DNA of 40,722 bases from Candidatus Omnitrophota bacterium (GTDB lineage: Bacteria; Omnitrophota; Omnitrophia; Omnitrophales; JACQLI01): assembly GCA_016204125.1 (NCBI GenBank), contig JACQLI010000023.1, forward strand, positions 1 through 40,722, written 5' to 3'. The position numbers and the translations under genes are program-made. Position 1 is the first letter of the stretch. Every line of letters starts with the position of its first letter. The notes under the pieces were generated by a model. That model saw nothing but the letters and a program-made list of their open reading frames with translations. It did not search any database and was not told the DNA's origin. This document shows, piece after piece, positions 524 to 17,877 of this stretch.

Positions 524-1150
524 TCATGGTTTGCGTGCCTCAGCAATCATCATCCCCCAAATGAGGTTCGTTTTGAACCTTTGTTCTCTTACGACATGGA
601 ACTCAACATCCGTAAGGAAGGCACGCAATTCGCGCTGCGTATAGCACTGCTTATGGGTGGAATCGAAAATCTTTAGGCATAAATCGCAGAGACGGCAGAT
701 GAGGTAATCTCGACACCAGTCCAAAATAATGAGCTTCCCATCCGTTTTCAAAACCCTCTTCATTTCAACCAGAGATTGAGTTGGATCATCGAAAAAATGA
801 AAAGAATTGGCACAAACCACCAGATCAAAATGTTCTTCTGGAAAAGGAATTCGAAAAGCGCTTGCTTTAAAAAAAGTGACGTTCGGGTAAGTGGAGAGTT
901 TCGATCTTGCAACCGCAAGCATTTTCTCAGAAATATCAACGCCCGATATATTCTGGTTCGGATGATCCTTGACTAATAATTGCTCAAGCGTTCCTGTGCC
1001 GCAAGCTACATCTAAGATTCTTTCCGTACCTTTAACGTTCATCCATTTCTTAAGGAAACTCAGAGTAGATGAAACATAACGCCGCCAGCGTAAGTCATAC
1101 TGTTCTGCTAACTGGTCGTACTGTTCTCTAACTTTATTTTCCTTCCTCAT
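524..1150 (-). CDS. class I SAM-dependent methyltransferase
   Basis: SAM-binding motif I ILDVACGTGT, then GVDISEKML and DLVVCANSFHF, typical of Methyltransf_11-type enzymes. A 4-nt gap separates it from the upstream gene. Confidence 0.85.
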   Translation of the reverse strand: MRKENKVREQYDQLAEQYDLRWRRYVSSTLSFLKKWMNVKGTERILDVACGTGTLEQLLVKDHPNQNISGVDISEKMLAVARSKLSTYPNVTFFKASAFRIPFPEEHFDLVVCANSFHFFDDPTQSLVEMKRVLKTDGKLIILDWCRDYLICRLCDLCLKIFDSTHKQCYTQRELRAFLTDVEFHVVREQRFKTNLIWGMMIAEARKP

Positions 1151-1154
1151 CTGC

Positions 1155-1556
1155 TCAACTTGTCACCGGAATCATATTGTCGTTTTCATCATAGGTGTAA
1201 CGGGGATTGCCGTTGTCCTTATGGATGCGGATATCTGCGACTTTGAGATTACCTCCTTCATCTTGAATGTCAAAATCAAGATCAAGCAAATCTCCAGTCT
1301 TCACATCCTTCATGTCGGTGCAGGAATAATAATAGTCTCCTGTTTTTCCGACACGCTCATGCACTCTTACAAGCTCAAGTTGCCTCAAGTCGCCGCTTCG
1401 TTCATCCACGATGGCAAAAATGCCTTGAAGTTTTTCTTGATTTGCAATGTAATCACGAATCGTCTGACGCAAGGCCTCAGGTGCAGGCTCTGCGTAGACA
1501 AGAGAAATCCATGCGATCATGGCTAACATAAAGACACCCATCATCTTTTTCTTCAT
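1155..1556 (-). CDS. secreted protein of unknown function
   Basis: Signal-peptide-like N-terminus MKKKMMGVFMLAMIAWISLVYA. An AGGAG Shine-Dalgarno sits 6 nt upstream of the ATG at 1556. Confidence 0.6.
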   Translation of the reverse strand: MKKKMMGVFMLAMIAWISLVYAEPAPEALRQTIRDYIANQEKLQGIFAIVDERSGDLRQLELVRVHERVGKTGDYYYSCTDMKDVKTGDLLDLDFDIQDEGGNLKVADIRIHKDNGNPRYTYDENDNMIPVTS

Positions 1557-1587
1557 GGCACGCTCCTATGTTAAAAGTCCGACTCAA

Positions 1588-1623
1588 CCCGTGTCTCTGA
1601 CTTTCGGATGTTAGAGACACGGG
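1588..1623 (-). terminator. perfect 11-bp stem hairpin, possible terminator or processing/attenuation site at the end of the long gene array
   Basis: cccgtgtctct (1588-1598) pairs with agagacacggg (1613-1623) around a 14-nt loop. It lies in the only sizeable intergenic gap (1557-1639) of the 1-17 kb region. On the minus strand the stem is followed by TTGAGTCGGACTTTT, which is not a canonical U-tract. Confidence 0.35.
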
Positions 1624-1639
1624 CATGAAACCGGACGGA

Positions 1640-1888
1640 TTATTCTTCCTCCGCTGCGATTGCTTCAAGTTTGGCAGCAAGATCAGGGTGGGTCGATTTT
1701 AATATCGAAGCGGCTTCTCTGATCGTAGCGGCATGGCCCTCACCATGTTGGTGACTTCCTTCTACTGCTTCACCGCCATGTTCTTTCACCTCGGAACCGC
1801 CGTGCTCTCCTGCAAGAAGAACTGCAGGACTCCACAAGGTTGTACCTAACATTAATGCCAAACCAATCAACATGCTCTTCCGATTCAT
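1640..1888 (-). CDS. small secreted His/Gly/Glu-rich protein
   Basis: Signal peptide MNRKSMLIGLALMLGTTLWSPAVLLA. The mature part carries EHGG repeats and HQHGEGH. Its start overlaps the upstream stop by 4 nt. Confidence 0.55.
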   Translation of the reverse strand: MNRKSMLIGLALMLGTTLWSPAVLLAGEHGGSEVKEHGGEAVEGSHQHGEGHAATIREAASILKSTHPDLAAKLEAIAAEEE

Positions 1889-2871
1889 TTTTCTCCTCCT
1901 GTTGTTTTTAGGTTTTTAAATTGAAACGACGTTTTTACCCCATTCCATTCTTTTCCATCTACTTCAACGTACGGATAGAAAAAAATGTTGACGGGTGGTC
2001 CTGATTGCTTGGGGACAAGATTGATATCCCGTCCCACACTGATGAGAAACTTATTCGTGTCGTAATTTCCGAAATACACCTCCTTTCTTTCCGGATGTTT
2101 CCAAGCTTCGGAAGCATCCACTGGTTGCCAACCTTTTCCTTCTTCATAAAATTCCGCCCAACAGTGATATCCCGGAATCTCTCCCTCAGCTCCATCCGGA
2201 ACTGTGAGTCCGATTTTAAAACGTGCCGGAATCTCCGCCGCATGAGCCATAGAAATAAAAAGCGAATGAAAATCGGTGCAATTTCCTTTTCCAAGAAGAC
2301 AGGCTCTCGCCGTGTCACCGCGCCCCCATCCCGGAATTGTCTTATCATATTTCATCCAATTGATCACATTTTCATAAATGCCTCTTGCTTGCTCAAGTAA
2401 ATTGCGCTTTCCGTGGATCGCCTGTTGCGTTCTTTTCCTCACTTCGTCATTGACCACCATGAGATGATTCGGCTTCAGATACCGATTTACACCAGTTTCG
2501 TGGTTTGAACTGGCAAAATTTTTCTGAAGGGTTTGAGCATAATAAGTCACTTGGAAATTGAGACCTTGCGGAACACGATCTGAAACTTCAAAATAGGCCA
2601 TTTCATTTCCATAGACGGGATCCTTGGTGATTCGATATGGCAAGCCTGTTATGATCTCCCGTTTTTTTACAATTTGTCCTTCCCGAGAAGAAGCAAGCGG
2701 AATCCATACACTCAGTTTTTTTGCATCCTGAGGGATCGCGCCAATGTAAGTTTCATAACTCACCTTAAACTCCCGCTGCGATGGAAAAGGGTCGACTCCT
2801 TTATGCGACTCAAACAAATAAATAGATCCTAATAGGATGACTGCTCCAGAAAATAGAAATAATTTATTCAT
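1885..2871 (-). CDS. transglutaminase-like (Cys-His-Asp) domain protein, N-terminal signal/anchor
   Basis: GNCTDFHSLF (Cys), GYHCWAEFY (His) and WQPVDASE (Asp) appear in the order typical of the transglutaminase core. I moved the start to the ATG at 2871 (MNKLFLFSGAVILLGSIYLF), 4 nt after the upstream stop. The ORF-track start at 2949 would overlap the upstream gene by 74 nt. Confidence 0.8.
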   Translation of the reverse strand: MNKLFLFSGAVILLGSIYLFESHKGVDPFPSQREFKVSYETYIGAIPQDAKKLSVWIPLASSREGQIVKKREIITGLPYRITKDPVYGNEMAYFEVSDRVPQGLNFQVTYYAQTLQKNFASSNHETGVNRYLKPNHLMVVNDEVRKRTQQAIHGKRNLLEQARGIYENVINWMKYDKTIPGWGRGDTARACLLGKGNCTDFHSLFISMAHAAEIPARFKIGLTVPDGAEGEIPGYHCWAEFYEEGKGWQPVDASEAWKHPERKEVYFGNYDTNKFLISVGRDINLVPKQSGPPVNIFFYPYVEVDGKEWNGVKTSFQFKNLKTTGGEK

Positions 2872-2875
2872 GTTG

Positions 2876-3319
2876 TCACAATACAACCAACTGATAGCCT
2901 TGATCCGCCCATTTTGCAATACTCGGATGGCCTCGGTATTCAGCGACAAGGGAAGCTTTTCTTTCTTTAAGTTTGTCTTTCACCAGAAAAGCAGAAGCAC
3001 AGTAATCGCAGATAACTTCTGTGATGCCGGCTTTTCTGAGTTCTTCATACACCGGTTTCAGTTTATCCTGCGACTCAGGATCGAGCCATTCGCTCACCCA
3101 TTCGGTTCCGGCCCCGTCAAAGACAAGAACAACTTCATGCCCATGTTCTTTCAATTCTTTCGAATAAAGCAACGCGTGCACCGCTCGCGCCATGCCTTCG
3201 TGGCTTTCCTTCCCCGCCTGAAAAATAATCAGATACTTTCCACTTTCAGCGAAAGCATTTGGAAAATAACTGGTTGTCATGAGAGCCGCCAAAAGCACTG
3301 CCATTGTGAAACGCTTCAT
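2876..3319 (-). CDS. DsrE/DsrF-like family protein with signal peptide
   Basis: Signal peptide MKRFTMAVLLAALMTTSYFPNAFA. It has a KYLIIFQAGKESHEG...HEVVLVFDGAGTEWV beta-alpha pattern like the DsrE fold and a C-terminal CDYC. Confidence 0.5.
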   Translation of the reverse strand: MKRFTMAVLLAALMTTSYFPNAFAESGKYLIIFQAGKESHEGMARAVHALLYSKELKEHGHEVVLVFDGAGTEWVSEWLDPESQDKLKPVYEELRKAGITEVICDYCASAFLVKDKLKERKASLVAEYRGHPSIAKWADQGYQLVVL

Positions 3320-3322
3320 TTT

Positions 3323-4102
3323 TCACCTCCTCTTGTATGGAATATTAACGAAAGGTGTTTTAATCATCCCCAATAGCGATTGCCACTCTTTTTCCTGCAA
3401 GTAAGGAAGACCGTACACAAGCGTTCGAGTATCTTTCCTCTTGTGGAAAGACTTAACGATTCTGTCCCAAAAAGAAAAAATGCTTGAGTAATTAGAATCT
3501 GTTTCGCTTCGAATTTGCGAATGATGTACTCGGTGCATATTGGGCGTAACGATTATCGCGCGAAAAATTCGGTCGATCTTTTCAGGCAGTGCGACATTCG
3601 AATGATGAAAAATGATGATCGGCTGCAAACAGAGTTCATAAATCAAAAGTTGAATAAATTGCATTCCAATCAAAGGAATGACAATGAGACGGAGAAGTGA
3701 AGAGAATACAATTTCTCCGGTATGAAACCTGAGAGCACTCGTCGCATCAAGTTCCAGGTCTGAATGATGCATTCTGTGGAACCGCCAGAGAAATGGAATC
3801 TGGTGATTGGCCACGTGCCAAACATACATCCAAAGATCAAAGAGTACGAAGGCGAACGCGCCTTCTATCCAAGAGCTCAAGCTTAATTGGTGAAGAAGCC
3901 CCCATGACCGGCTTTCTGCAAAATGCATCACTTTTAACGTTACGGTAGAAAAAAGCAAGGAGATGATAAGACCATTTAAAACTCCGATTCCGAGATTAGG
4001 TAACGCGTGGCGGAATCGATCATCCCTGCCTTGGAAAAGAGGGAAAATCCCCTCCATCCAGAACACAAGTCCAAGGCTCGCGACTTCAACCCAAAATTTC
4101 AT
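3323..4102 (-). CDS. fatty acid hydroxylase / sterol desaturase family membrane di-iron enzyme
   Basis: Three His boxes, HVANH, HRMHH and HRVHH, sit in a polytopic hydrophobic protein. Confidence 0.85.
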   Translation of the reverse strand: MKFWVEVASLGLVFWMEGIFPLFQGRDDRFRHALPNLGIGVLNGLIISLLFSTVTLKVMHFAESRSWGLLHQLSLSSWIEGAFAFVLFDLWMYVWHVANHQIPFLWRFHRMHHSDLELDATSALRFHTGEIVFSSLLRLIVIPLIGMQFIQLLIYELCLQPIIIFHHSNVALPEKIDRIFRAIIVTPNMHRVHHSQIRSETDSNYSSIFSFWDRIVKSFHKRKDTRTLVYGLPYLQEKEWQSLLGMIKTPFVNIPYKRR

Positions 4103-4764
4103 CGAATCTCCGGATAGAGCTTTCCTTTCAAGCCTAAAATATTAAAGCCTGAGTAACATAAAGCAACAAGAAATATGTTAATCAGTTTTTGTCGGACGCA
4201 ACCATTTTGAGTAAACCGCCGCGCCGATGTCACAACTGGGTCTTGAATAATAACGGGACTTGTCAGCCAACGCAGCCGCTGATAAAAATCAATGTCTTCA
4301 AACGACACAGTCTCACTAAAACCATATAATTTTTCGAAAAGCTTTCTGGTAACGAAAAATCCCTGGTCTCCGTAAGAAAAGAAATGGAATCTCGTATAGG
4401 TCTCGTAGAAACGCAGAAGCCACTGGCGATTGTCGAATTTCATCCTAAAGCGGCCTGCGCTGGCGCCTTGACTGACGACTTCTTTGATCTGCTCTAAACC
4501 ATTCTTAGGTAAGCGAGTATCCGCATGCAGAAAAAGAAAAACATCGCCAGTTGCTATTCTAGTCCCTTCATTCATCTGGCGCGCCCTTCCTTTAGCCGAG
4601 GAAATGACGTTTGCCCACTTAGAAGCAAGCGAAACCGTTTTGTCGGTTGATCCTCCATCCACGACAATTATCTCGTCAGGTTGGTGATGAGAACAAAGAT
4701 CTTGTAAAGTATCACAAATGGTCGACTCCTCATTGTAGGTGGGAATAATAACAGATATCTTCAT
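4099..4764 (-). CDS. GT-A fold glycosyltransferase, TIGR04283-like (ArsS-associated transferase 2)
   Basis: ISVIIPTYNEE, EIIVVDGGSTDKT, GRARQMN, LFLHADTRLP, YGDQGFF, FEDIDF and TSARRF. I set the start at the ATG at 4764 (MKISVIIP). The longer ORF-track start would overlap arsS by 110 nt. Confidence 0.8.
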   Translation of the reverse strand: MKISVIIPTYNEESTICDTLQDLCSHHQPDEIIVVDGGSTDKTVSLASKWANVISSAKGRARQMNEGTRIATGDVFLFLHADTRLPKNGLEQIKEVVSQGASAGRFRMKFDNRQWLLRFYETYTRFHFFSYGDQGFFVTRKLFEKLYGFSETVSFEDIDFYQRLRWLTSPVIIQDPVVTSARRFTQNGCVRQKLINIFLVALCYSGFNILGLKGKLYPEIR

Positions 4765-4777
4765 GCCTTTTACCTTT

Positions 4778-5743
4778 TCACTTTTTACTTTCCAATGCTC
4801 CCTGGCAACTAGAACCGCATCCGGCCGTACACCCAAAACAATGCTCCCCGGTTGCGATTCTGAAATCCTCAAGCTGGGCGGGATCAAGGTTAAAAATAGT
4901 TAAAAGCCTGCCATTTTTCATCTGCATACCTTGAGCCTGATTGAAATCGCAATCATAAACTCTCCCGTCCCACGATACGCTCAAGGTGTTTTGGCACATA
5001 AGACCGTCCAAAGTGGCGGGATTGAAACTGTTCATCAAAAGTTGGGTATAAGTTTCGTACTGGTTAAAGGCCTTTAGATATTTTGTGTATCGGGTAATTG
5101 GCATATTGGTAATGGTATAAAGACGATTAAAAACAATCCCCCAATCCTCCTTGAGTCTTTCTTTGTAATCTTCTTCAAGCTGATCCTGAGCTGGAGGCAA
5201 ATGGGGACCAACCGGATTGTAAACTAGACTGAGGATAAGATTACTCCCTTCCTTCCCATAGCCAAGCTCATTTAATTTCAAAAGGGCTTTGATGGATTCA
5301 TCAAATACACCCTTGCCTCTTTGTTTGTCCACGTTTTCTTTTAAGTAGCAAGGTAAAGAAGCGACAATTTCAACCTGGTGATCCGCCAAAAATGTGTCCA
5401 AATCCTCCTGGCCTGGCACAAAGAGCACGGTTAAATTGCAACGGTCAATTACATGAATGCCGCGCTTCTTTGCTTCCGAAACCAAATACCTAAAATTGGG
5501 ATTTAGTTCTGGTGCACCGCCTGTGAGATCAAGTGTTTTGAATTGAGCTCGATCCATAAAATAGACAACGGCTTCTGCCGTTTCATGGTTCATATTTTCC
5601 CGTGTTTTGGTCGGCCCCGCTTCAACATGACAATGCACACAAGCGAGATTACAAAGTTTCCCAAGATTAACCTGAAGGATCTCTATCTTTTGTTTCCGAA
5701 GCCGGGCGCTAACTTCCCCAAGCTTCTCCTCGAAACGATTCAT
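4778..5743 (-). CDS. arsS: arsenosugar biosynthesis radical SAM protein ArsS (radical SAM / Cys-rich C-terminal domain, TIGR04167-like)
   Basis: CNLACVHC radical-SAM CxxxCxxC triad near the N-terminus and a Cys-rich C-terminal tail CFGCTAGCGSSCQGAL. It sits beside arsM and the two context-linked transferase families. Confidence 0.85.
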   Translation of the reverse strand: MNRFEEKLGEVSARLRKQKIEILQVNLGKLCNLACVHCHVEAGPTKTRENMNHETAEAVVYFMDRAQFKTLDLTGGAPELNPNFRYLVSEAKKRGIHVIDRCNLTVLFVPGQEDLDTFLADHQVEIVASLPCYLKENVDKQRGKGVFDESIKALLKLNELGYGKEGSNLILSLVYNPVGPHLPPAQDQLEEDYKERLKEDWGIVFNRLYTITNMPITRYTKYLKAFNQYETYTQLLMNSFNPATLDGLMCQNTLSVSWDGRVYDCDFNQAQGMQMKNGRLLTIFNLDPAQLEDFRIATGEHCFGCTAGCGSSCQGALESKK

Positions 5744-5746
5744 CTT

Positions 5747-6901
5747 TTAAGCTCCTATTCTCGATAATAAAATAAAACTTGCTGCTGAAAAAAATGCTGC
5801 TACCGGCAAAGTCAAAAACCATGCGCCCAAAATGGAAGAAATCACATTCCACCGCGCTTTTCCATTCACAAGACCGATTCCGAAAAGGGCTCCGCAAGAA
5901 ACATGGGTCGTTGATACCGGCATTCCCCACTGGGAAGCAAAAATAACCAAAATGGCAGTGACCAAATTGGCCGCCAGTCCCTGGCCATGATTCATGTAAG
6001 TGATCTTGTGAGAGACCGTTTCGGCCACTTTCCGTGCGCCCAGGATTCCGCCGACCGCCATCGCCAAAGCAACAAATCCGACATTCCAAGTTAAACCAAG
6101 CGCACTTGAAGCCACAAGAAGAGCAACGATCTTTGGCGTATCATTTAGTCCTCTGGCAAAACTAACAGCTCCCGCACTCAGGAAATGGAAGAAATCAAGA
6201 ACCGACTGAGCGTTCACGCCAAACATTTTCCCTTCATAAATCTCAATCGCTTTGGCTTTGCAGCTTTTCTCATTTCCAACAAATACCTCGGGCAACGTAA
6301 TTTCTGTGCTGGTAAACATTTGTCCATTTTCCAAACCCAAATCTGCCAGAGGAATAACTTTTTCACCAACGCAGAGACAACTCTTTCGCGTAATACCGAG
6401 TGTTTTTCTTGCCTTATGCATCACAAAATAAACCGCTGTGGTCAAAACAAGCGCCATAAAGGGACTTGCGATAAGAGGCATGAGAAAGTTTTTTCCCAAG
6501 GTAGTGAATCCAAGTTCCCCTCCAATTGCTATAAATCCGGCTCCGACCAAAGCTCCTGTAAGGCCGTGTGTGGTTGAAATCGGAATCCCAAAGCGTGCGG
6601 CTAAAAGGACGGTTAAACCCGCGCCTAAGGCGACTGCTGCGAGAAACGCCGGATTTCCAATCACAGCATCCGGAACAAGCCCTTTACCCGTAAACGTTCT
6701 CACCAGACGGGTGGCAAGAAAAAGTGCCGCAATTGATCCTGAAAGTGTCGTCGCCGTAGCCCAGCTCAAGGCCTTCCGGTAATCTGTCGTTCCACTTCCA
6801 AACAGCGTGGCTACGCCCTTGAAATTGTCATTCGCACCATTTGCATACGCTACCAGCAATACTGCGATTAATACTGTTAACATCCAAACCATTAGCAGCA
6901 A
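5747..6901 (-). CDS. PiT (PHO4) family inorganic anion transporter
   Basis: Two-fold repeat signatures GANDNFKGVATL and GLNDTPKIVALL in a protein with about 10 TM segments and a central hydrophilic loop. It overlaps the arsM stop by 10 nt and ends 3 nt before the arsS start. Confidence 0.85.
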   Translation of the reverse strand: MLLMVWMLTVLIAVLLVAYANGANDNFKGVATLFGSGTTDYRKALSWATATTLSGSIAALFLATRLVRTFTGKGLVPDAVIGNPAFLAAVALGAGLTVLLAARFGIPISTTHGLTGALVGAGFIAIGGELGFTTLGKNFLMPLIASPFMALVLTTAVYFVMHKARKTLGITRKSCLCVGEKVIPLADLGLENGQMFTSTEITLPEVFVGNEKSCKAKAIEIYEGKMFGVNAQSVLDFFHFLSAGAVSFARGLNDTPKIVALLVASSALGLTWNVGFVALAMAVGGILGARKVAETVSHKITYMNHGQGLAANLVTAILVIFASQWGMPVSTTHVSCGALFGIGLVNGKARWNVISSILGAWFLTLPVAAFFSAASFILLSRIGA

Positions 6902-8106
6902 CCTCCATCCAAACAGACAGATTTCGCTACAGTTGTTTTTCTGTACCGTTTCCCTTTGGTTTCGCGCGGATCACGTTCCGCTGTGCGGTGACAATCAAAA
7001 GGTTTGGCTTTGGCAAGCGGAACATCTTTCGACGGTGGCACCAAAATGAAATCGTTGTGATAGGGCGCCTTGGAATAGATCTGATAGGTCTTATCACAGA
7101 CCGCCGTTCTTGCACCGCGTTTCAGAACATGCCCATCATCATCCACAACCTGTTTCCATGGTCCCTTATAAATCACGGCTTGATTTCTTTCCCAGCAAGG
7201 GCCTTCCTTACCTTTATAGGCCGTAATCGTGACCGAGCGAAATTCGATTCCTTGAACAATGCGCCACGGTCTTTCATCAAACTTTTCAATTTTGAGTCCG
7301 TAAAAACCGGCTTCCTCAAAAGCCCTGACAAATTCTTTCTCCTGAAAGGCTCCCGAGATACATCCACTCCAAAGCTCTGGATCCTTCTGAAGTTTATGAG
7401 GGATGGACTCGTCCGAAACAATATCGGAAATTGCGACACGTCCGCCCTTTCTCAAAACTCGGTGAATTTCCCGGAACAAAGTTTTCTTGTCTTCAGATCG
7501 GACGAGATTCAAGACACAATTGGAAACAATCACATCAATGGATTCATCTTCAATGAGCGGCGATTGCTGCCGTATGTGTTCCACCGCATCCTCGAAATGA
7601 GTCAAATCGTCCACCGAATGAATCGGGTTGCCTTTGAACGTTGCCTCTAAGGCTTCAAGGTCTGTCCTTAAATCTTGAATGCGGCCTCTTCGGAACTCCA
7701 CATTGTGCCAGCCGATTCGGTCACCAACCTCCTTTTGATATTTTCTGGCGAGCGCTAACATGGGAGGGTTGAAATCAATGCCAATTACTTTCCCCTTCGG
7801 ACCCACGATTTGAGAGGCGATGTAACAGATTTTCCCTGCACCGGATCCCAGATCCAAAACCACATCGCCTTCTTTCAGATAGCGCGAAGGATCCCCGCAG
7901 CCATAATCCCTTTCGAGGATTTCCTTAGAGATAACCTTAAGATACTTGGGATCGTAGCTCGTGGGACAGCAAAGAGCTTCTTCTTTGGCCTTTGCCCCCC
8001 GCGCATACCGCTCCCGGACCGCTTGTTCGACGGGCAGCCTTCCGTTCAAGAACAGCTCTCGACCATTAGTGTGATGTTTTCCATTTCCATTATGTGAATA
8101 TTTCAT
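6892..8106 (-). CDS. arsM: arsenite S-adenosylmethionine methyltransferase ArsM with C-terminal extension
   Basis: SAM motif VLDLGSGAGK. The conserved As-binding cysteine contexts YGCGDP, SNCVLNL and WSGCISGA are present, plus LCCP near the N-terminus and GGCC at the C-terminus. I set the start at the ATG at 8106 (MKYSHNG), preceded by GGGAGGTAAGG. Confidence 0.85.
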   Translation of the reverse strand: MKYSHNGNGKHHTNGRELFLNGRLPVEQAVRERYARGAKAKEEALCCPTSYDPKYLKVISKEILERDYGCGDPSRYLKEGDVVLDLGSGAGKICYIASQIVGPKGKVIGIDFNPPMLALARKYQKEVGDRIGWHNVEFRRGRIQDLRTDLEALEATFKGNPIHSVDDLTHFEDAVEHIRQQSPLIEDESIDVIVSNCVLNLVRSEDKKTLFREIHRVLRKGGRVAISDIVSDESIPHKLQKDPELWSGCISGAFQEKEFVRAFEEAGFYGLKIEKFDERPWRIVQGIEFRSVTITAYKGKEGPCWERNQAVIYKGPWKQVVDDDGHVLKRGARTAVCDKTYQIYSKAPYHNDFILVPPSKDVPLAKAKPFDCHRTAERDPRETKGKRYRKTTVAKSVCLDGGCC

Positions 8107-8770
8107 GTTCCTTACCTCCCCTAAGATTTTTCGCCGATCCGACCGATCGGTGCCAGATGACCGAGCGGCCGTCCGCCGCTTGACCGACTGGTACTTCATC
8201 AAGATCATCAAGTTTCTGAAGCAAATAGTAAGACAAATTCTTTTCATTCAACTTGTTTAATGTCGATTCAAACACGTGCTGCGAACTCCACGGAATATTT
8301 TTGAAGATTGAGGGCTGTTCACAATTGGTTCCAATCAGATAGTAACCGCCGTCATAGGCAGGACCGATGACAACGTCATAAAACTCAAGGGCGTCAAATC
8401 CTTTCATGATCAAATCGGCCCTAAGGCCCAAAGTGTCGCTTCCAAGCGCCATTACTTTTTTGAACCCCTTTTCGAAAGCAAACTGAAATGCATTTTGAAG
8501 ACGCACTCCAAGACCAGAACCTCTTTGAACCACATATTCATAAGAGCCAGAAAGCCAGGAACGAAAGGCCTCTTCTTTCTCTGGAGGATCAAAAGCGACG
8601 ATTAGTTTTATGAAATCTTGGGGAAGAGAATTAAGAATTCCAAGGTTTGTCTCGGTAAGCTCACGATAGGCTTGCGCAGCGCGTTGGTCTCCGACGCTTT
8701 TTGCAAGCCGCGTTTTTACCTTGCCCGGCTCCGGATATTTCACGAAATACAAAATCAATTTATCTCCCAT
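8090..8770 (-). CDS. DUF2064 / TIGR04282-like (ArsS-associated transferase 1)
   Basis: KYPEPGKVKTRLA, ALGSDTLGL and GPAYDGGYYLIG, the nucleotidyl/glycosyl-transferase-like hallmarks of DUF2064. Confidence 0.8.
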   Translation of the reverse strand: MGDKLILYFVKYPEPGKVKTRLAKSVGDQRAAQAYRELTETNLGILNSLPQDFIKLIVAFDPPEKEEAFRSWLSGSYEYVVQRGSGLGVRLQNAFQFAFEKGFKKVMALGSDTLGLRADLIMKGFDALEFYDVVIGPAYDGGYYLIGTNCEQPSIFKNIPWSSQHVFESTLNKLNEKNLSYYLLQKLDDLDEVPVGQAADGRSVIWHRSVGSAKNLRGGKEHEIFT

Positions 8771-9479
8771 GAGAACTCACCAGATATTTTTCTCTTAAAT
8801 TCTCCGGATTCTCCTTTAAGAGCTTATAGCCAAAAAGGATCCGAGCGTTTCTAAGGATTTGGCGAAGAACGCCGTGTTCCATGTACCGTCTTGAGGAGAC
8901 AGCTACCGGCTCCTCGATCATAGTGATGCGGCCTTTCTTCCTCATGCAATCCGAAAAAATCAAATCCTCAAGCAAGGGAACTTCCGGAAATCCATTGAGT
9001 GATTCGAAGACTTCCCGCTTCACAAAAATTGCATTCGTTCCCACAAGACAATGCATCAGGCCAAGGTAAATGGTATTTAGGAGAAACTCGTAGACACCAA
9101 GTAGGAAACTCGTAGGCTCGTATTTTTTCCTGAATCCCCCTCCGATGTACCTTTGCTCAATCTTCTCCTGTACAAGTCCAATCGCCCTGTCTGGAAGACG
9201 CACATCTGCATGAGTAAAAAGGAAGACATCTGATTGGGCTTCGAAGGCTCCCGCATTCATCTGAAGTGCGCGATCCGGATACGCTGTCTGAAACAGGCAG
9301 ACACTTGGATACTCACGCCGGATGATTTCATCGGTGCCGTCCCGGGAATTCCCGTCCACAGCAATCACCTCATCCGCTCCGAGCGAAAGGAGGTGTGTCA
9401 GCGTCCGAGCAATAAGGGTTCTTTCGTTCGCAACCGGAACAATAATGGAAACTGTTGGTTTTTTGTCCATAACTCCCAT
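8760..9479 (-). CDS. GT-A fold glycosyltransferase, second TIGR04283-like paralog
   Basis: VSIIVPVANE, EVIAVDGNSRDGT, RALQMN, LFTHADVRLP, LEDLIF and VSSRRY. These are collinear with the 4099..4764 protein. An alternative ATG lies at 9470. Confidence 0.75.
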   Translation of the reverse strand: MGVMDKKPTVSIIVPVANERTLIARTLTHLLSLGADEVIAVDGNSRDGTDEIIRREYPSVCLFQTAYPDRALQMNAGAFEAQSDVFLFTHADVRLPDRAIGLVQEKIEQRYIGGGFRKKYEPTSFLLGVYEFLLNTIYLGLMHCLVGTNAIFVKREVFESLNGFPEVPLLEDLIFSDCMRKKGRITMIEEPVAVSSRRYMEHGVLRQILRNARILFGYKLLKENPENLREKYLVSSHGR

Positions 9480-10819
9480 CCCAAAAAGAAATAAAAGATG
9501 CCATATTCAACCAAGCGAGACAAATCGAAGAAGTGAGGTTTCCCCTGATAGGTGAAATAGAAGTCTAGGTAATAAAGAAAAATCAAGCCCGAAAGCAGGA
9601 TCAGAGAACGCAGAGGTATGAAGAAAAGAAACGGAAAGATCCATGTGAGGTACCACGGATTTCCTGTTGGAGCGAGGAGAAAAAGGAACGTCAAAACCAC
9701 AAGCGAGGCCTGGCAGAAGGAAAGGAGATCCTCTTTTCTCTTAAGCCAATGAAGGACGAGAACAATAGCTGTGGAGAAAATTCCTCCAGCGATTATCCGA
9801 CTCATTGCATGAGTCCACTCATTATTCACCGGTAGCATTGAAACGCTGCCGTGAATCAAGCTAAACAGGCCGTCGTTGACCCTCCAAGAGGTTGCAAAGA
9901 TTCCCAAACCTTCAAAAAGAGAAACTCCCACACCGGAAAAAGGAAGGTAAAAGAGAACGAGTAAAACCAAAAAGAGTCCAACTCCCAGAAAGGTTTGGCG
10001 CCTTTGCTTTGGCAAAGTCCACGCGATAAGAAGCGGGAAAAGAACGACGGGAAACCATTTGGTTAAGGCGGCTAGACTAAGAAGTCCATAGGCGGATACG
10101 AGCCAGTCTCTCGTCAGGCAATAGATCATTCCCGTAAGAAAGAGAATAACAAACACATCAAGATGAAGGCTGTTTGAAAATTCTTTTAATACGAGAGGCG
10201 ACCAGGCATAAAGAAGACTCCATTCTTTGGAAATGTCAAAGCGCTTAAGAATAGCAACTGTCAGAGAGAGAATTCCAAGTTCAGCGACAAGAATCATCGC
10301 TTTCCAACCCCAGAGTTTCCAAGGCGTGATCCACTGAGACAGGGCAAAGAGAATCTGAGCGAAGGGAGGATAAATCGTTTTAATCCCCGGGTGATTGATT
10401 CTTTCAAAGACGGCTCCCATGTCGGGAGAGCTAATCTCTCCCCTTTCTTCTCCTGTCTGAAAAGCTTCCTTGGGCGAAAGCGCGTAGGGATTCTCTCCTC
10501 GGAGAAGCGTCTCGCCATCCCAAAGGTAGCGGTAAGGATCGGTTTCCTGAATCGGGTTGGATGGAAGATACGCAACACGGCAAAGAATGGCGATCACAAA
10601 AATCCACAGAGACAGAAAAGACTTTGAGTGAGTTTCTTTCGAATTCCTCCTTAACCACTCGAAGGTTGCAAAGTAAGCAATGAACGCCAAACCTTCAAGC
10701 ATAAGGAAAGATAGAATCGGCCGCTCCGCATGGCCCGCTCCGAAGACAAAAGAATGGCTAAGCCATGAAATCCCAATTTGCGTCAACAAAATGAACGCGC
10801 CCAAGACGATCAGAGTCAT
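9398..10819 (-). CDS. polytopic membrane protein, GT-C type (DUF2029/GT87-like) glycosyltransferase
   Basis: At least 10 hydrophobic segments. The first periplasmic loop carries ETDPYRYLWDGETLLRGENPY, resembling the acidic-loop motif of polyprenyl-phosphate-sugar dependent GT-C enzymes. Confidence 0.6.
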   Translation of the reverse strand: MTLIVLGAFILLTQIGISWLSHSFVFGAGHAERPILSFLMLEGLAFIAYFATFEWLRRNSKETHSKSFLSLWIFVIAILCRVAYLPSNPIQETDPYRYLWDGETLLRGENPYALSPKEAFQTGEERGEISSPDMGAVFERINHPGIKTIYPPFAQILFALSQWITPWKLWGWKAMILVAELGILSLTVAILKRFDISKEWSLLYAWSPLVLKEFSNSLHLDVFVILFLTGMIYCLTRDWLVSAYGLLSLAALTKWFPVVLFPLLIAWTLPKQRRQTFLGVGLFLVLLVLFYLPFSGVGVSLFEGLGIFATSWRVNDGLFSLIHGSVSMLPVNNEWTHAMSRIIAGGIFSTAIVLVLHWLKRKEDLLSFCQASLVVLTFLFLLAPTGNPWYLTWIFPFLFFIPLRSLILLSGLIFLYYLDFYFTYQGKPHFFDLSRLVEYGIFYFFLGWELWTKNQQFPLLFRLRTKEPLLLGR

Positions 10820-16960: not shown

Positions 16961-17254
16961 TTACGAGGAACCGGCCAGGCGGAGCCACAACCGTTTCCAG
17001 AATCCAGGTGGCTGTAGGCCCGGCTTGGACTTAATAAAGCTACGTAACTTCTGCCTAAGCTCGGGAGGAATCTCTCTCGGATGGAGTTCTTTCGAGAGCT
17101 TGATTGTTTGCCTGTAGGTATTGATGAAGGCAAGACAGCCCGGGCAATCAGCCAAATGCTGTTCGAGCTGTTGCCTCAGCGCAGGCTCAAGCGAGCCGTC
17201 AATGTAGTCATAGAGGAGCTTGCCGACATCACGACACCTAAGCATCGTATTCAT
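16961..17254 (-). CDS. zinc-binding anti-sigma factor (ZAS, zf-HC2), soluble
   Basis: HLADCPGC (HxxxCxxC) plus an upstream Cys (LRCRD). It overlaps the ECF sigma stop by 4 nt. I see no TM segment. Confidence 0.75.
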   Translation of the reverse strand: MNTMLRCRDVGKLLYDYIDGSLEPALRQQLEQHLADCPGCLAFINTYRQTIKLSKELHPREIPPELRQKLRSFIKSKPGLQPPGFWKRLWLRLAGSS

Positions 17255-17877
17255 TTTGGGCTAACCATCTTGAAATTTGGAAAATGCGCTGTCATATAGT
17301 CTGCTAATTCCTTGCGCAAAAAAAGCCGTGCCCGATGGAGCCGGCTCTTCAAGGCCGCAATGGAGATTTCAAGGATCTGGCTCGTCTCCTCTGCTGAAAG
17401 CTCTTCGATGTCCCTTAGGATAAATACACTTCGATAATCCGGTGGGAGAGCCGTAAGGGCCTCATCGATCCGATGAAGAAGTTCCTTACGCATCAGTTCC
17501 TCATCAGGAAGTTTTGACCAGTCGACTACGGGCTCAGCAATCATTCCTTCCTCTGTCATCTTAGGCCCCAACTCCTCTTCAAGCGGTATCTCCTGAAATT
17601 TGGACCGCTTTCTAAGCTTCATGAGTGCGGTGTTCGTAGCAATCCGGTAAATCCAACTCGAAAGCTTGGCGTTTCCCCGAAACCCATCAATTTTCTGAAA
17701 AACGGTCAAGAAGACATCCTGGAGGATTTCCTCCGCATCTTGACGATTGCCTGTCATCCGAAGAGCCAGACCGAAGATCTTGGCCTCATACTGGGTCATC
17801 AGGGCTTCCAAGGCAGCTTCGTCCTTCGCCTTGAGCCGTCTAATAAAATTCAGATCGTCAGATGGGGATTTGGCCAT
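17251..17877 (-). CDS. ECF (sigma-70 group 4) RNA polymerase sigma factor
   Basis: Region 2, DAEEILQDVFLTVFQK...WIYRIATN, and region 4, LSAEETSQILEISIAALKSRLHRAR. Confidence 0.9.
   Translation of the reverse strand: MAKSPSDDLNFIRRLKAKDEAALEALMTQYEAKIFGLALRMTGNRQDAEEILQDVFLTVFQKIDGFRGNAKLSSWIYRIATNTALMKLRKRSKFQEIPLEEELGPKMTEEGMIAEPVVDWSKLPDEELMRKELLHRIDEALTALPPDYRSVFILRDIEELSAEETSQILEISIAALKSRLHRARLFLRKELADYMTAHFPNFKMVSPK

What the first reader, a model, noticed from the sequence alone, without database searches (positions are those of the whole stretch)
1640..4102. Envelope-facing accessory genes fused to the arsenic core
**Seen in the sequence:** four genes follow the core with junctions between a 4-nt overlap and a 4-nt gap.
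- A tri-His-box membrane enzyme (HVANH, HRMHH, HRVHH).
- A DsrE-like protein carrying a signal peptide and a CDYC motif.
- A signal-anchored transglutaminase-like Cys-His-Asp protein.
- An 82-aa secreted peptide rich in His and Glu (EHGG repeats, HQHGEGH).

**Established knowledge:** fatty-acid-hydroxylase-family enzymes modify lipid chains. DsrE-fold proteins carry persulfide sulfur on Cys.

**Inference:** the pathway may end in a lipid-linked or thiolated arsenical handled outside the cytoplasm, such as an arsenolipid or thio-arsenosugar. The His-rich peptide could act as a metal or metalloid chaperone. This gene combination is not something I can map to a described pathway.
Basis: partly seen in the sequence, partly recalled or inferred. 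Interest (0 to 1): 0.6.

Follow-up and report, generated by a model that had tools for sequence, protein, structure and literature searches.

The report
Exported accessory genes beside arsenosugar cluster
Four real, exported or membrane-bound genes follow the arsenic-sugar genes of this Omnitrophota bacterium, but they are separable add-on modules that also occur without the arsenic genes, so they look more like an envelope metal and redox kit than the missing last steps of arsenic-lipid synthesis.

Summary
All four genes, their motifs and their tight junctions are present (TGase start corrected to 2871).

They are not one unit. In 301 Omnitrophota genomes:
- ArsS occurs in 26, the TGase-like gene in 40, the hydroxylase (FAH) in 26 and the DsrE-like gene in 5.
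- ArsS and TGase co-occur in 17 genomes (3.5 expected) and are adjacent in 11.
- 23 TGase genomes lack ArsS.

Fusions tie the parts together: FAH+TGase (twice, independently), EHGG leader+133-aa protein, and 133-aa protein+Cu,Zn-SOD.

Predicted signal cleavage leaves X-E-H, a Cu(II)/Ni(II)-binding ATCUN motif, in 29 of 33 leaders.

Without ArsS the module sits beside MsrAB, PCMT, peroxiredoxin, DsbD or SOD genes. FAH also tracks the TIGR04283/04282 transferases. The DsrE-like CDxC protein occurs only in arsenic-type clusters, twice followed by DsbD.

Outside Omnitrophota only FAH recurs near ArsS (5 of 74 loci).

Best reading: a modular envelope metal/thiol-stress kit repeatedly recruited to arsenic clusters. 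An arsenolipid role for FAH and DsrE is not excluded.

This scan noted a similar extended cluster in another Omnitrophota genome. Transcript data could not be obtained.

The parts
4099..4764 (-). TIGR04283-family GT2 transferase (last gene of the arsenic core; translationally coupled to FAH)
   Evidence: NCBIfam TIGR04283, 224 bits against a cut-off of 182. ATGA overlap with the FAH start. FAH or DsrE follows a TIGR04283-like gene in the window and in L006, L080, L083-L085, L087, L093, L096, L125, L131, L133 and L134.
3323..4102 (-). Membrane fatty-acid-hydroxylase-superfamily enzyme (FAH) with four His clusters
   Evidence: PF04116, E 1e-26. The only NCBIfam hit is OlsE at 63.6 bits, far below its 475 cut-off. 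Hydropathy shows several TM segments. Found in 26 of 301 Omnitrophota genomes, 20 of which carry ArsS and/or TGase. Fused to TGase in G063 and G240.
2876..3319 (-). Exported DsrE-fold protein with invariant CDxC and several invariant His
   Evidence: PF02635, 37.5 bits. Invariant C104, D105, C107, H40, H48, H59 and H61; H131 nearly invariant. 273 homologs in the protein database; those with a source name are Omnitrophota. Found in 5 of 301 genomes, always in arsenic-type clusters. Followed by DsbD in G208 and G240.
1885..2871 (-). Signal-anchored transglutaminase-like Cys-His-Asp enzyme with an N-terminal beta-sandwich
   Evidence: PF01841. AF2 model pLDDT 91.5. Best structural match 3ISR, E 2e-18, TM 0.62/0.71, then TgpA 6G49. 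Triad C198/H236/D252 is conserved, with extra invariant C191 and C237.
1640..1888 (-). 82-aa exported peptide: signal peptide, predicted mature N-terminus G-E-H-G-G (ATCUN type), a second EHGG, a His-rich linker and a conserved C-terminal helical segment
   Evidence: Alignment A4: EHGG, a second E.GG (read as EHGG in seven of eight sequences) and L70-A71-x-K73 are invariant. In 29 of 33 distinct leaders the first EHGG follows [AGS][AG] at the end of a signal peptide. No Pfam family at E<1.
1577..1636 (-). Strong stem-loop between the peptide gene and the next gene, followed by UUUU
   Evidence: MFE -36.5 kcal/mol, z -4.0, none of 200 shuffles as stable. Stable hairpins of unrelated sequence sit at the same place in L080, L082, L088, L102, L115, L119, L121 and L124. 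The simple terminator scan did not call it.
1155..1556 (-). 133-aa exported protein of an unannotated family ('sp133'), obligate partner of the TGase gene
   Evidence: No Pfam or NCBIfam hit. 515 homologs; every one that carries a source name is called 'hypothetical protein' from Omnitrophota. 34 invariant columns including H66, C79, H112 and D92/D94/D96. AF2 pLDDT 88: one helix on a curved sheet, with only weak cystatin/NTF2-like matches. Co-occurs with TGase in 35 of 40 genomes. Fused to the EHGG leader or to Sod_Cu in relatives.
524..1150 (-). UbiE-like SAM methyltransferase that often follows the module
   Evidence: Methyltransf_11/25, E about 1e-25. A homolog follows the module directly in L080, L115, L119 and L120. 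One precedes TGase in L123, and one lies between ArsS and the GT in L088.

Best explanation
The block is a lineage-specific, periplasm-facing add-on built from three separable sub-modules. These have been repeatedly recruited to arsenosugar-type (ArsM/ArsS/TIGR04282/TIGR04283) clusters in Omnitrophota.

**(1) TGase-like enzyme + His peptide + 133-aa protein: an autonomous exported unit.**
- The peptide, or the equivalent leader fused to the 133-aa protein, is cut by signal peptidase to expose NH2-X-Glu-His. This is an ATCUN-type site that binds Cu(II) or Ni(II).
- It works with the 133-aa protein, which in close relatives is fused to a periplasmic Cu,Zn superoxide dismutase, and with the Cys-His-Asp enzyme.
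- Together they act as a general envelope metal and oxidative or thiol-damage module.

**(2) The di-iron membrane hydroxylase.**
- It acts on a membrane lipid or lipid-linked product.
- It is tied both to the TGase enzyme (two independent fusions) and to the TIGR04283/04282 transferases.

**(3) The exported DsrE-fold CDxC protein.**
- It is a periplasmic dithiol protein specific to arsenic-type clusters.
- It is probably kept reduced by DsbD, and it binds or reduces an arsenical or carries sulfur.

**Regulation.** All are probably co-expressed with the arsenic genes under the upstream ECF sigma / ZAS anti-sigma pair, in response to thiol-reactive stress.

**Shown:** the genes, motifs, folds, linkage statistics and fusions.
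**Inferred:** the cleavage site, metal binding, substrates and co-regulation.
For: **Linkage in 301 Omnitrophota genomes**
- Counts: ArsS 26, TGase 40, sp133 40, FAH 26, DsrE 5.
- Overlaps: ArsS&TGase 17 against 3.5 expected; TGase&sp133 35; ArsS&FAH 11 against 2.2; ArsS&DsrE 4 of 5.
- TGase lies within about 6 kb of ArsS in 11 genomes.
- The full set recurs in a 182-kb metagenome contig with DsrE and FAH swapped. FAH-TGase-peptide-sp133 follows ArsS-GT on a 2.2-Mb contig.

**Autonomy of the TGase module**
- 23 TGase genomes lack ArsS.
- Neighbours there are MsrA/MsrB, PCMT, AhpC/thioredoxin-like, DsbD_TM, DsbH and Sod_Cu.
- ArsS adjacency needs at least 8 changes on a 33-sequence TGase tree.

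**Fusions**
- FAH+TGase in G063 (540 aa) and G240 (622-aa frame). These lie in different TGase clades, each with an unfused sister.
- EHGG leader+sp133 in 10 loci.
- sp133+Sod_Cu in 6 loci.

**ATCUN-compatible leaders:** 29 of 33.

**FAH**
- Two divergent clades (32% identical) occupy the same cluster in otherwise 70-80% identical loci.
- FAH sits beside GT283/DUF547/T282 in three genomes without ArsS.

**DsrE-like gene:** followed by DsbD, DsbH and ArsC in G208 and G240.

**Regulators:** ECF sigma and zf-HC2 lie upstream in the window, and also next to the module in L081, L104 and L123.
Against: - No biochemical function is known for any close homolog. The best structural relative of the TGase (3ISR) is itself uncharacterised.
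- The signal-peptide cleavage site is only predicted.
- The enrichment near ArsS (about five-fold) and the ATGA coupling of GT283b to FAH could equally mean direct participation in the arsenical pathway.
- Kin genomes are not independent, so the Fisher values overstate the association.
- Several 'unlinked' cases sit on short contigs.
A strong hairpin separates the peptide gene from sp133.
Confidence: 0.5

Rival explanations
1. First reader's reading. The four genes are the terminal, extracytoplasmic steps of the arsenic pathway. FAH tailors a lipid-linked arsenosugar. The DsrE-like protein thiolates or reduces it outside the cytoplasm. The TGase-like enzyme and the peptide handle the product (an arsenolipid or thio-arsenosugar).
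For: - ATGA coupling of the TIGR04283 GT to FAH.
- FAH lies near ArsS in five proteobacterial loci and eight Omnitrophota genomes.
- The DsrE-like gene occurs only in arsenic-type clusters, after a TIGR04283-like GT.
- In G090 an exported rhodanese occupies the slot between the GT and FAH. It is closest to NCBIfam 'rhoda_near_glyco' but scores below that model's cut-off.
- A GT-C (MptA/B-like) transferase in the same operon implies a lipid-linked sugar donor acting outside.
Against: - The TGase, peptide and sp133 genes occur in 23 genomes without ArsS, in repair and antioxidant contexts.
- 5 of 26 ArsS genomes have none of the accessory genes.
- 0 of 76 ArsS loci from the genome collection (74 outside Omnitrophota) have TGase, DsrE or the peptide.
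- FAH also occurs with the transferases but without ArsS.
- His, Glu and ATCUN chemistry does not suit arsenic.
Confidence: 0.2
2. RiPP-like reading. The small peptide is a Sec-exported precursor. The adjacent TGase-like protease or transamidase processes it, or cross-links it to sp133 or the envelope, to give a periplasmic metallophore analogous to bufferins.
For: - A strong hairpin directly after the peptide gene recurs in relatives, as after many precursor-peptide genes.
- The peptide is always next to a Cys-His-Asp enzyme.
- In G090 a bufferin-type MNIO cluster sits in the same locus.
Against: - In 10 loci the leader is simply the N-terminus of sp133, with no separate peptide.
- No known RiPP class uses a TGase-like periplasmic enzyme.
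- The hairpin may only tune stoichiometry.
Confidence: 0.1
3. Pure hitch-hiking. The genes share a metal(loid)-resistance island with the arsenic core (also MerR, MerT-HMA and CopZ) but have no functional or regulatory connection to it.
For: MerR/MerT-HMA/CopZ genes follow the module in L080, L082, L115 and L120, and a MerR/HMA set follows it in L081. ArsS adjacency is scattered on the TGase tree.
Against: - Overlapping or 3-4-nt junctions lie inside a co-directional gene array.
- Independent re-association with ArsS in several clades and orders.
- Five-fold or greater enrichment.
Confidence: 0.15

Closest known systems
Synechocystis-type arsenosugar pathway (ArsM + radical-SAM ArsS) with the TIGR04282/TIGR04283 transferases
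   Same: The window has ArsS (TIGR04167, 451 bits against a cut-off of 300), TIGR04283 (224 against 182), TIGR04282 (187 against 134) and an ArsM-like methyltransferase directly upstream.
   Different: FAH, the DsrE-like protein, the TGase-like protein, the His peptide and sp133 are not part of the described pathway. No paper found describes them. They are missing from most ArsS loci.
Bacterial transglutaminase-like 'putative cysteine proteases' (PDB 3ISR, Cytophaga hutchinsonii; periplasmic domain of P. aeruginosa TgpA, 6G49)
   Same: The two-domain build is the same: beta-sandwich plus TGase core. The Cys-His-Asp triad is conserved. Like TgpA, the protein is extracytoplasmic.
   Different: Only about 16% identical. 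The partners here (ATCUN leader, sp133, FAH fusion) are not known for 3ISR or TgpA. The function of those proteins is also unknown.
Fatty-acid hydroxylase / sterol desaturase superfamily (PF04116), nearest named model OlsE ornithine-lipid hydroxylase
   Same: His-box architecture and membrane topology match. The Pfam score is well above its cut-off.
   Different: OlsE model score is 63.6 against a cut-off of 475, so it is not OlsE. Two divergent clades substitute for each other. Fusion to a periplasmic TGase domain is unreported, to my knowledge.
DsrE/TusD sulfur-relay proteins
   Same: PF02635 fold family, scoring above the gathering threshold.
   Different: It is exported and has CDxC instead of a single active Cys. 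No TusA was found in the 73%-complete genome. The PDB TusD match is only marginal, E 1.4. In relatives it pairs with DsbD rather than DsrFH/TusBC.
ATCUN (NH2-X-X-His) Cu(II)/Ni(II) sites and periplasmic copper buffers such as bufferins
   Same: His is predicted at position 3 of the mature chain. There are repeated His-Gly-Gly units. Neighbours include Cu,Zn-SOD, CopZ, HMA and a bufferin-type cluster.
   Different: Metal binding and the cleavage site are untested. The peptide is ribosomal and unmodified as far as can be told, and it is coupled to a new 133-aa domain.

Membership tests
FA_hydroxylase superfamily (PF04116) | Profile match above the gathering score | tested here: met
   94.4 bits against a cut-off of 31, covering profile positions 2-131 of 132
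FA_hydroxylase superfamily (PF04116) | HX3-4H, HX2-3HH, HX2-3HH histidine boxes in an integral membrane protein | tested here: met
   HVANH (96-100), HRMHH (109-113), FHH (166-167) and HRVHH (190-194), with TM-like segments at 33-62 and 128-165
FA_hydroxylase superfamily (PF04116) | O2- and di-iron-dependent oxidation of a lipid substrate | not testable with these tools
   No assay is possible. The substrate is unknown.
OlsE ornithine-lipid hydroxylase (NF052566) | Equivalog score of at least 475 bits | tested here: not met
   63.6 bits (window) and 69.2 bits (clade B, L080)
DsrE/DsrF-like family (PF02635) | Profile match above the gathering score | tested here: met
   37.5 bits against a cut-off of 22.7, covering profile positions 2-115 of 116
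DsrE/TusD sulfur relay | Active-site Cys equivalent to TusD/DsrE Cys78 that carries a persulfide | tested here: inconclusive
   The profile search of PDB gives only a marginal TusD (2D1P) hit, E 1.4, ending near C104. A CDxC pair is invariant.
DsrE/TusD sulfur relay | Cytoplasmic location with TusA/DsrFH-type partners | tested here: not met
   All 30 homologs have signal peptides. No TusA was found in the genome, which is 73% complete.
Transglutaminase-like superfamily (PF01841) | Profile match and conserved Cys-His-Asp triad | tested here: met
   77.1 bits against a cut-off of 23. C198 and D252 are invariant and H236 is conserved in at least 90% of sequences.
Transglutaminase-like superfamily (PF01841) | Papain-like TGase core fold | tested here: met
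   AF2 pLDDT 91.5. Foldseek 3ISR E 2e-18, TM 0.62/0.71. TgpA and TG2/TG3/FXIII follow in the hit list.
Transglutaminase-like superfamily (PF01841) | Transamidase or protease activity | not testable with these tools
   Needs an enzyme assay.
ATCUN metal-binding motif | Free N-terminus with His at position 3 | tested here: inconclusive
   29 of 33 leaders read ...[AGS][AG]-E-H-G-G, with AxA-type sites placing the cut before [AG]EH. The cleavage is predicted, not observed.
Arsenosugar-type cluster (ArsS system) | ArsS, TIGR04283 and TIGR04282 above their NCBIfam cut-offs in one operon | tested here: met
   451 against 300, 224 against 182 and 187 against 134 bits
Arsenosugar-type cluster (ArsS system) | The four accessory genes are conserved components of the system | tested here: not met
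   TGase is absent from 9 of 26 ArsS genomes, FAH from 15 and DsrE from 22. TGase, DsrE and the peptide are absent from all 76 ArsS loci.

The most novel reading that the evidence does not exclude
The cluster builds an envelope-anchored organoarsenical.
- The TIGR04283 transferase makes a lipid-linked arsenosugar.
- The coupled di-iron hydroxylase tailors its lipid.
- The product is flipped outward.
- A DsbD-fed DsrE-like (or rhodanese) dithiol protein then reduces or thiolates the arsenic.
- The FAH-tethered TGase-like enzyme attaches it to an envelope acceptor, with the Cu/Ni-binding leader and 133-aa protein as cofactor.

This would identify the unknown late enzymes of arsenolipid or thio-arsenosugar formation.
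Probability: 0.1. Interest if true: 0.85.

Novelty: new variant of a known kind. Interest (0 to 1): 0.5.

Why it matters
The steps after ArsS that turn dimethylarsinoyl-adenosine into arsenosugars and arsenolipids are unknown.

- **Candidates narrowed.** The membrane hydroxylase recurs across phyla beside ArsS and the TIGR04283/04282 transferases. The exported DsrE-like CDxC protein is restricted to arsenic-type clusters. These two are worth testing. The transglutaminase-like gene, the His peptide and their 133-aa partner are not arsenic-specific.
- **A new module.** Those three genes define an undescribed, widespread Omnitrophota periplasmic module: about 13% of sampled genomes, and 515 homologs of the 133-aa protein, none with an informative name. 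It has a predicted Cu(II)/Ni(II) ATCUN leader and Rosetta-stone links to a lipid hydroxylase and to Cu,Zn-SOD.
- **A testable handle.** This gives a way into envelope metal and oxidative-stress biology in a phylum with almost no cultured members.

Tried and rejected
- **Sequence searches of PDB.** Searches with TGase, DsrE, FAH, sp133 and the profiles A1 and A3 gave nothing useful: only chance zinc-finger or calmodulin hits and a marginal TusD hit.
- **Fold search of sp133.** Only weak cystatin, NTF2 and ketosteroid-isomerase-like matches (TM at most 0.44, E at least 0.014). I do not file it in any family.
- **Single acquisition by ArsS clusters.** I considered that ArsS-linked TGase copies form one clade. 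The tree rejects this: at least 8 changes against a shuffled mean of 10.6.
- **FAH as OlsE.** Rejected on score.
- **A terminator ending the operon at 1640.** The simple scan does not call one. The hairpin is real, but the downstream partner gene is syntenic in nearly all relatives. I read the hairpin as an internal attenuator or stabiliser, not proven.
- **Literature.** Searches for ArsS cluster accessory genes and for Omnitrophota arsenic genes found nothing relevant.
- **Model coordinates.** These were not available to my scripts, so Cys-Cys and His-Cys distances in the models could not be measured.
Full report
**1. What is in the sequence**

The window is a whole 40.7-kb contig of a 1.1-Mb metagenome-assembled genome (MAG) that is 73% complete. 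Its ArsS is closest to Omnitrophota proteins. The genes discussed here all lie on the minus strand.

The arsenic core ends with two genes:
- ArsS at 4778-5743 (TIGR04167, 451 bits).
- A TIGR04283 transferase at 4099-4764 (224 bits).

- **FAH, 3323-4102.** PF04116, E 1e-26. His clusters HVANH, HRMHH, FHH and HRVHH. Several TM segments.
- **DsrE-fold protein, 2876-3319.** PF02635, 37.5 bits. Cleavable signal peptide. CDYC motif.
- **Transglutaminase-like protein.** PF01841. Homolog alignments place the real start at the ATG at 2871, giving 328 aa with a single N-terminal anchor.
- **82-aa peptide, 1640-1888.**

The junctions are an ATGA overlap, a 3-nt gap, a 4-nt gap and an ATGA overlap.

**2.

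After the peptide gene comes a 60-nt stem-loop at 1577-1636 (-36.5 kcal/mol, z -4.0). Two more genes follow it:
- A 133-aa exported protein at 1155-1556, here called 'sp133'.
- A UbiE-like methyltransferase at 524-1150.

sp133 has no Pfam or NCBIfam family. It has 515 database homologs, and every one that carries a source name is a 'hypothetical protein' from Omnitrophota. It has 34 invariant columns, including H66, C79, H112, three alternating Asp, R110 and R119.

Its AF2 model (pLDDT 88) is one helix packed on a curved sheet. Matches to cystatin/NTF2-type folds are only weak.

Stable hairpins of unrelated sequence follow the peptide gene in most relatives. This suggests that the stoichiometry of the peptide relative to downstream genes is tuned.

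**3. Is the block linked to ArsS elsewhere?**

*Across phyla.* I fetched 76 ArsS loci from the genome collection, 36 of them at least 18 kb long.
- TGase, DsrE, the peptide and sp133 were found in none.
- FAH was found in six. One is an Omnitrophota contig that breaks right after FAH. Five are proteobacterial loci where FAH sits beside the DedA-reductase-ArsS genes.

*Within Omnitrophota.* I searched the same 301 genomes five times.

| Gene | Genomes with it |
|---|---|
| ArsS | 26 |
| DsrE-like | 5 |
| sp133 | 40 |
| TGase | 40 |
| FAH | 26 |

Overlaps:

| Pair | Observed | Expected |
|---|---|---|
| ArsS & TGase | 17 | 3.5 |
| ArsS & FAH | 11 | 2.2 |
| ArsS & DsrE | 4 of 5 | - |
| TGase & sp133 | 35 of 40 | - |

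- TGase lies within about 6 kb of ArsS in 11 genomes.
- 23 TGase genomes have no ArsS, and 5 ArsS genomes have none of the accessory genes.
- Kin are not independent and many contigs are short, so these numbers show a tendency, not a rule.

**4. Anatomy in relatives**

- A 182-kb contig repeats the window's whole operon at 70-80% protein identity. It has DsrE and FAH swapped, and an FAH only 32% identical to the window's. Two divergent FAH clades therefore fill the same slot.
- A 2.2-Mb contig has DUF547-TIGR04282-ArsM-ArsS-GT-FAH-TGase-peptide-sp133-DsbH.
- The triad TGase-(peptide)-sp133 is the constant unit. FAH is present in about half of the loci. DsrE is rare.

Rosetta-stone fusions:

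| Fusion | Where |
|---|---|
| FAH+TGase as one frame | G063 (540 aa) and G240 (622 aa); different TGase clades, each with an unfused sister |
| EHGG leader at the N-terminus of sp133 | 10 loci |
| sp133 + Cu,Zn-SOD domain | 6 loci |

ArsS adjacency needs at least 8 changes on a 33-sequence TGase tree (shuffled mean 10.6). The module has joined and left arsenic clusters many times.

**5. What surrounds the module when ArsS is absent**

- LemA-TPM-TPM-TGase-sp133-MsrA/MsrB.
- DsbD_TM-AhpC/thioredoxin-TGase-sp133-PCMT.
- Permease/PCMT-TGase-sp133.
- TGase-sp133-DsbH.
- AhpC-TGase-FAH-peptide-sp133.
- TGase-peptide-sp133/SOD followed by cytochromes.
- The module followed by MerR-MerT/HMA-CopZ.

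These are periplasmic protein-repair, antioxidant and metal-homeostasis genes.

An ECF sigma factor and a zf-HC2 (ZAS) anti-sigma lie upstream of the window's operon. The same kinds of gene lie beside the module in L081, L104 and L123. This fits a response to thiol-reactive stress. That last point is an inference.

**6. The peptide**

- In 29 of 33 distinct leaders the first EHGG is preceded by [AGS][AG] at the end of a signal peptide. This often forms a canonical AxA site, for example AQA|AEH, AVA|GEH and AYA|GEH.
- Cleavage there leaves NH2-X-Glu-His.
- From general bioinorganic knowledge, NH2-X-X-His is the ATCUN motif, a high-affinity Cu(II)/Ni(II) site. His-Gly-Gly repeats also bind Cu(II).
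- Relatives add SOD fusions and CopZ and HMA genes. G090 has a bufferin-type MNIO cluster between FAH and DsrE.
- Together this favours a copper or nickel role over a metalloid one. It is a prediction and has not been shown.

**7. FAH and DsrE**

*FAH.*
- It is rare in the phylum: 26 of 301 genomes. Twenty of those carry ArsS and/or TGase.
- Three of the remaining six have FAH next to TIGR04283-like, DUF547 and TIGR04282-like genes, without ArsS.
- FAH is thus tied to the transferases as well as to TGase. A lipid or lipid-linked sugar substrate is plausible but untested.
- It is not OlsE: 63.6 bits against a cut-off of 475.

*DsrE-like family.*
- It is highly conserved and always exported. CDxC and several His are invariant.
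- It follows a TIGR04283-like gene in every locus that carries it except G090 (L083), either directly or, in the window, after FAH.
- In G208 and G240 it is followed by a DsbD (253 bits to the DsbD subfamily model), a DsbH-type thioredoxin protein and an ArsC.
- In G090 an exported rhodanese sits between the GT and FAH. It is closest to NCBIfam 'rhoda_near_glyco', at 118 bits against a cut-off of 145.
- This keeps a periplasmic thiol or sulfur step on an arsenical possible, but it rests on a few genomes.

**8. TGase**

The AF2 model (pLDDT 91.5) matches the uncharacterised Cytophaga 'putative cysteine protease' 3ISR (E 2e-18, TM 0.62/0.71). The next match is the periplasmic domain of TgpA. The triad is conserved, and C191 and C237 are also invariant. 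Family membership is secure. The activity is unknown.

**9. Verdict**

The four genes are real and non-randomly associated with the arsenic core, but they are not one pathway branch.

My best reading (confidence about 0.5) is a modular envelope kit:
- A Cu/Ni-binding leader/sp133 pair working with a TGase-like enzyme. This is a general stress module.
- A lipid hydroxylase linked to both TGase and the transferases.
- An arsenic-cluster-specific periplasmic dithiol protein.

The arsenolipid or thio-arsenosugar idea survives only for FAH and DsrE, at about 0.2. No paper found describes any of this.

Noticed in passing
window 1155-1556 (-): A 133-aa exported protein of a large, unannotated Omnitrophota family (515 homologs, 34 invariant columns including a His/Cys/His set and an Asp ladder). 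It is fused to Cu,Zn-SOD or to an EHGG leader in relatives. It looks like a new periplasmic domain.
   Followed up: yes
window 1577-1636 (-): A very stable stem-loop (-36.5 kcal/mol, z -4) plus UUUU lies between the peptide gene and sp133. Hairpins of different sequence recur at the same place in relatives. It may be an internal attenuator or an mRNA stabiliser.
   Followed up: partly
G000:C37 (L119, 1267 bp): The same MAG holds a second, partial copy of TGase-peptide-sp133-methyltransferase at 75-85% protein identity on a tiny contig. It is either a paralogous copy or a co-binned related strain.
   Followed up: no
L083 (G090:C3) 6044-10576: Between the TIGR04283 GT/FAH and the DsrE-like gene lie several inserted genes: an exported rhodanese ('rhoda_near_glyco'-like), an MbnB/DUF2063 MNIO enzyme with a small Cys-rich exported peptide (bufferin-type cluster), a gene I read as YceI-like from its sequence alone (no family search run) and another His-rich 82-aa peptide. 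A SodC with a His/Met-rich N-terminus follows DsrE.
   Followed up: partly
L087 (G217:C26) and L107 (G101:C2): In one Omnitrophota family (f25) an otherwise similar cluster (ArsM-like at 36%, PiT, DedA-reductase, DUF547, transferases, TGase-sp133) has no TIGR04167 ArsS. It carries a short radical-SAM-like stretch only 27% identical. This may be a variant chemistry.
   Followed up: no
L123 17823-20348; L081 12110-13441: Two domain fusions in relatives: a radical-SAM + methyltransferase protein of 841 aa, and a DUF2064(TIGR04282)+GT2 protein of 443 aa followed by a PNP_UDP_1 nucleosidase-like gene. The latter is a candidate for the adenine-removal step.
   Followed up: no
window 16961-17877 (-): An ECF sigma factor (Sigma70_r2/r4_2) and a zf-HC2 anti-sigma lie directly upstream of the 15-kb gene array. 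The same kinds of gene sit beside the TGase module in L081, L104 and L123.
   Followed up: partly
window 524-1150 (-): A UbiE-like methyltransferase follows the module directly in L080, L115, L119 and L120. In G122 a homolog sits between ArsS and the GT. It may be a second methylation step.
   Followed up: partly
L085 (G208:C24) 5848-9821: DsrE-like is followed by DsbD (closest to the 'TsoB' rhodanese/DsbD selenoprotein model), a 772-aa DsbH-thioredoxin/six-hairpin protein and a 140-aa ORF I read as a low-molecular-weight-phosphatase-type ArsC from its CTGNSCRS motif alone (no family search run).
   Followed up: partly
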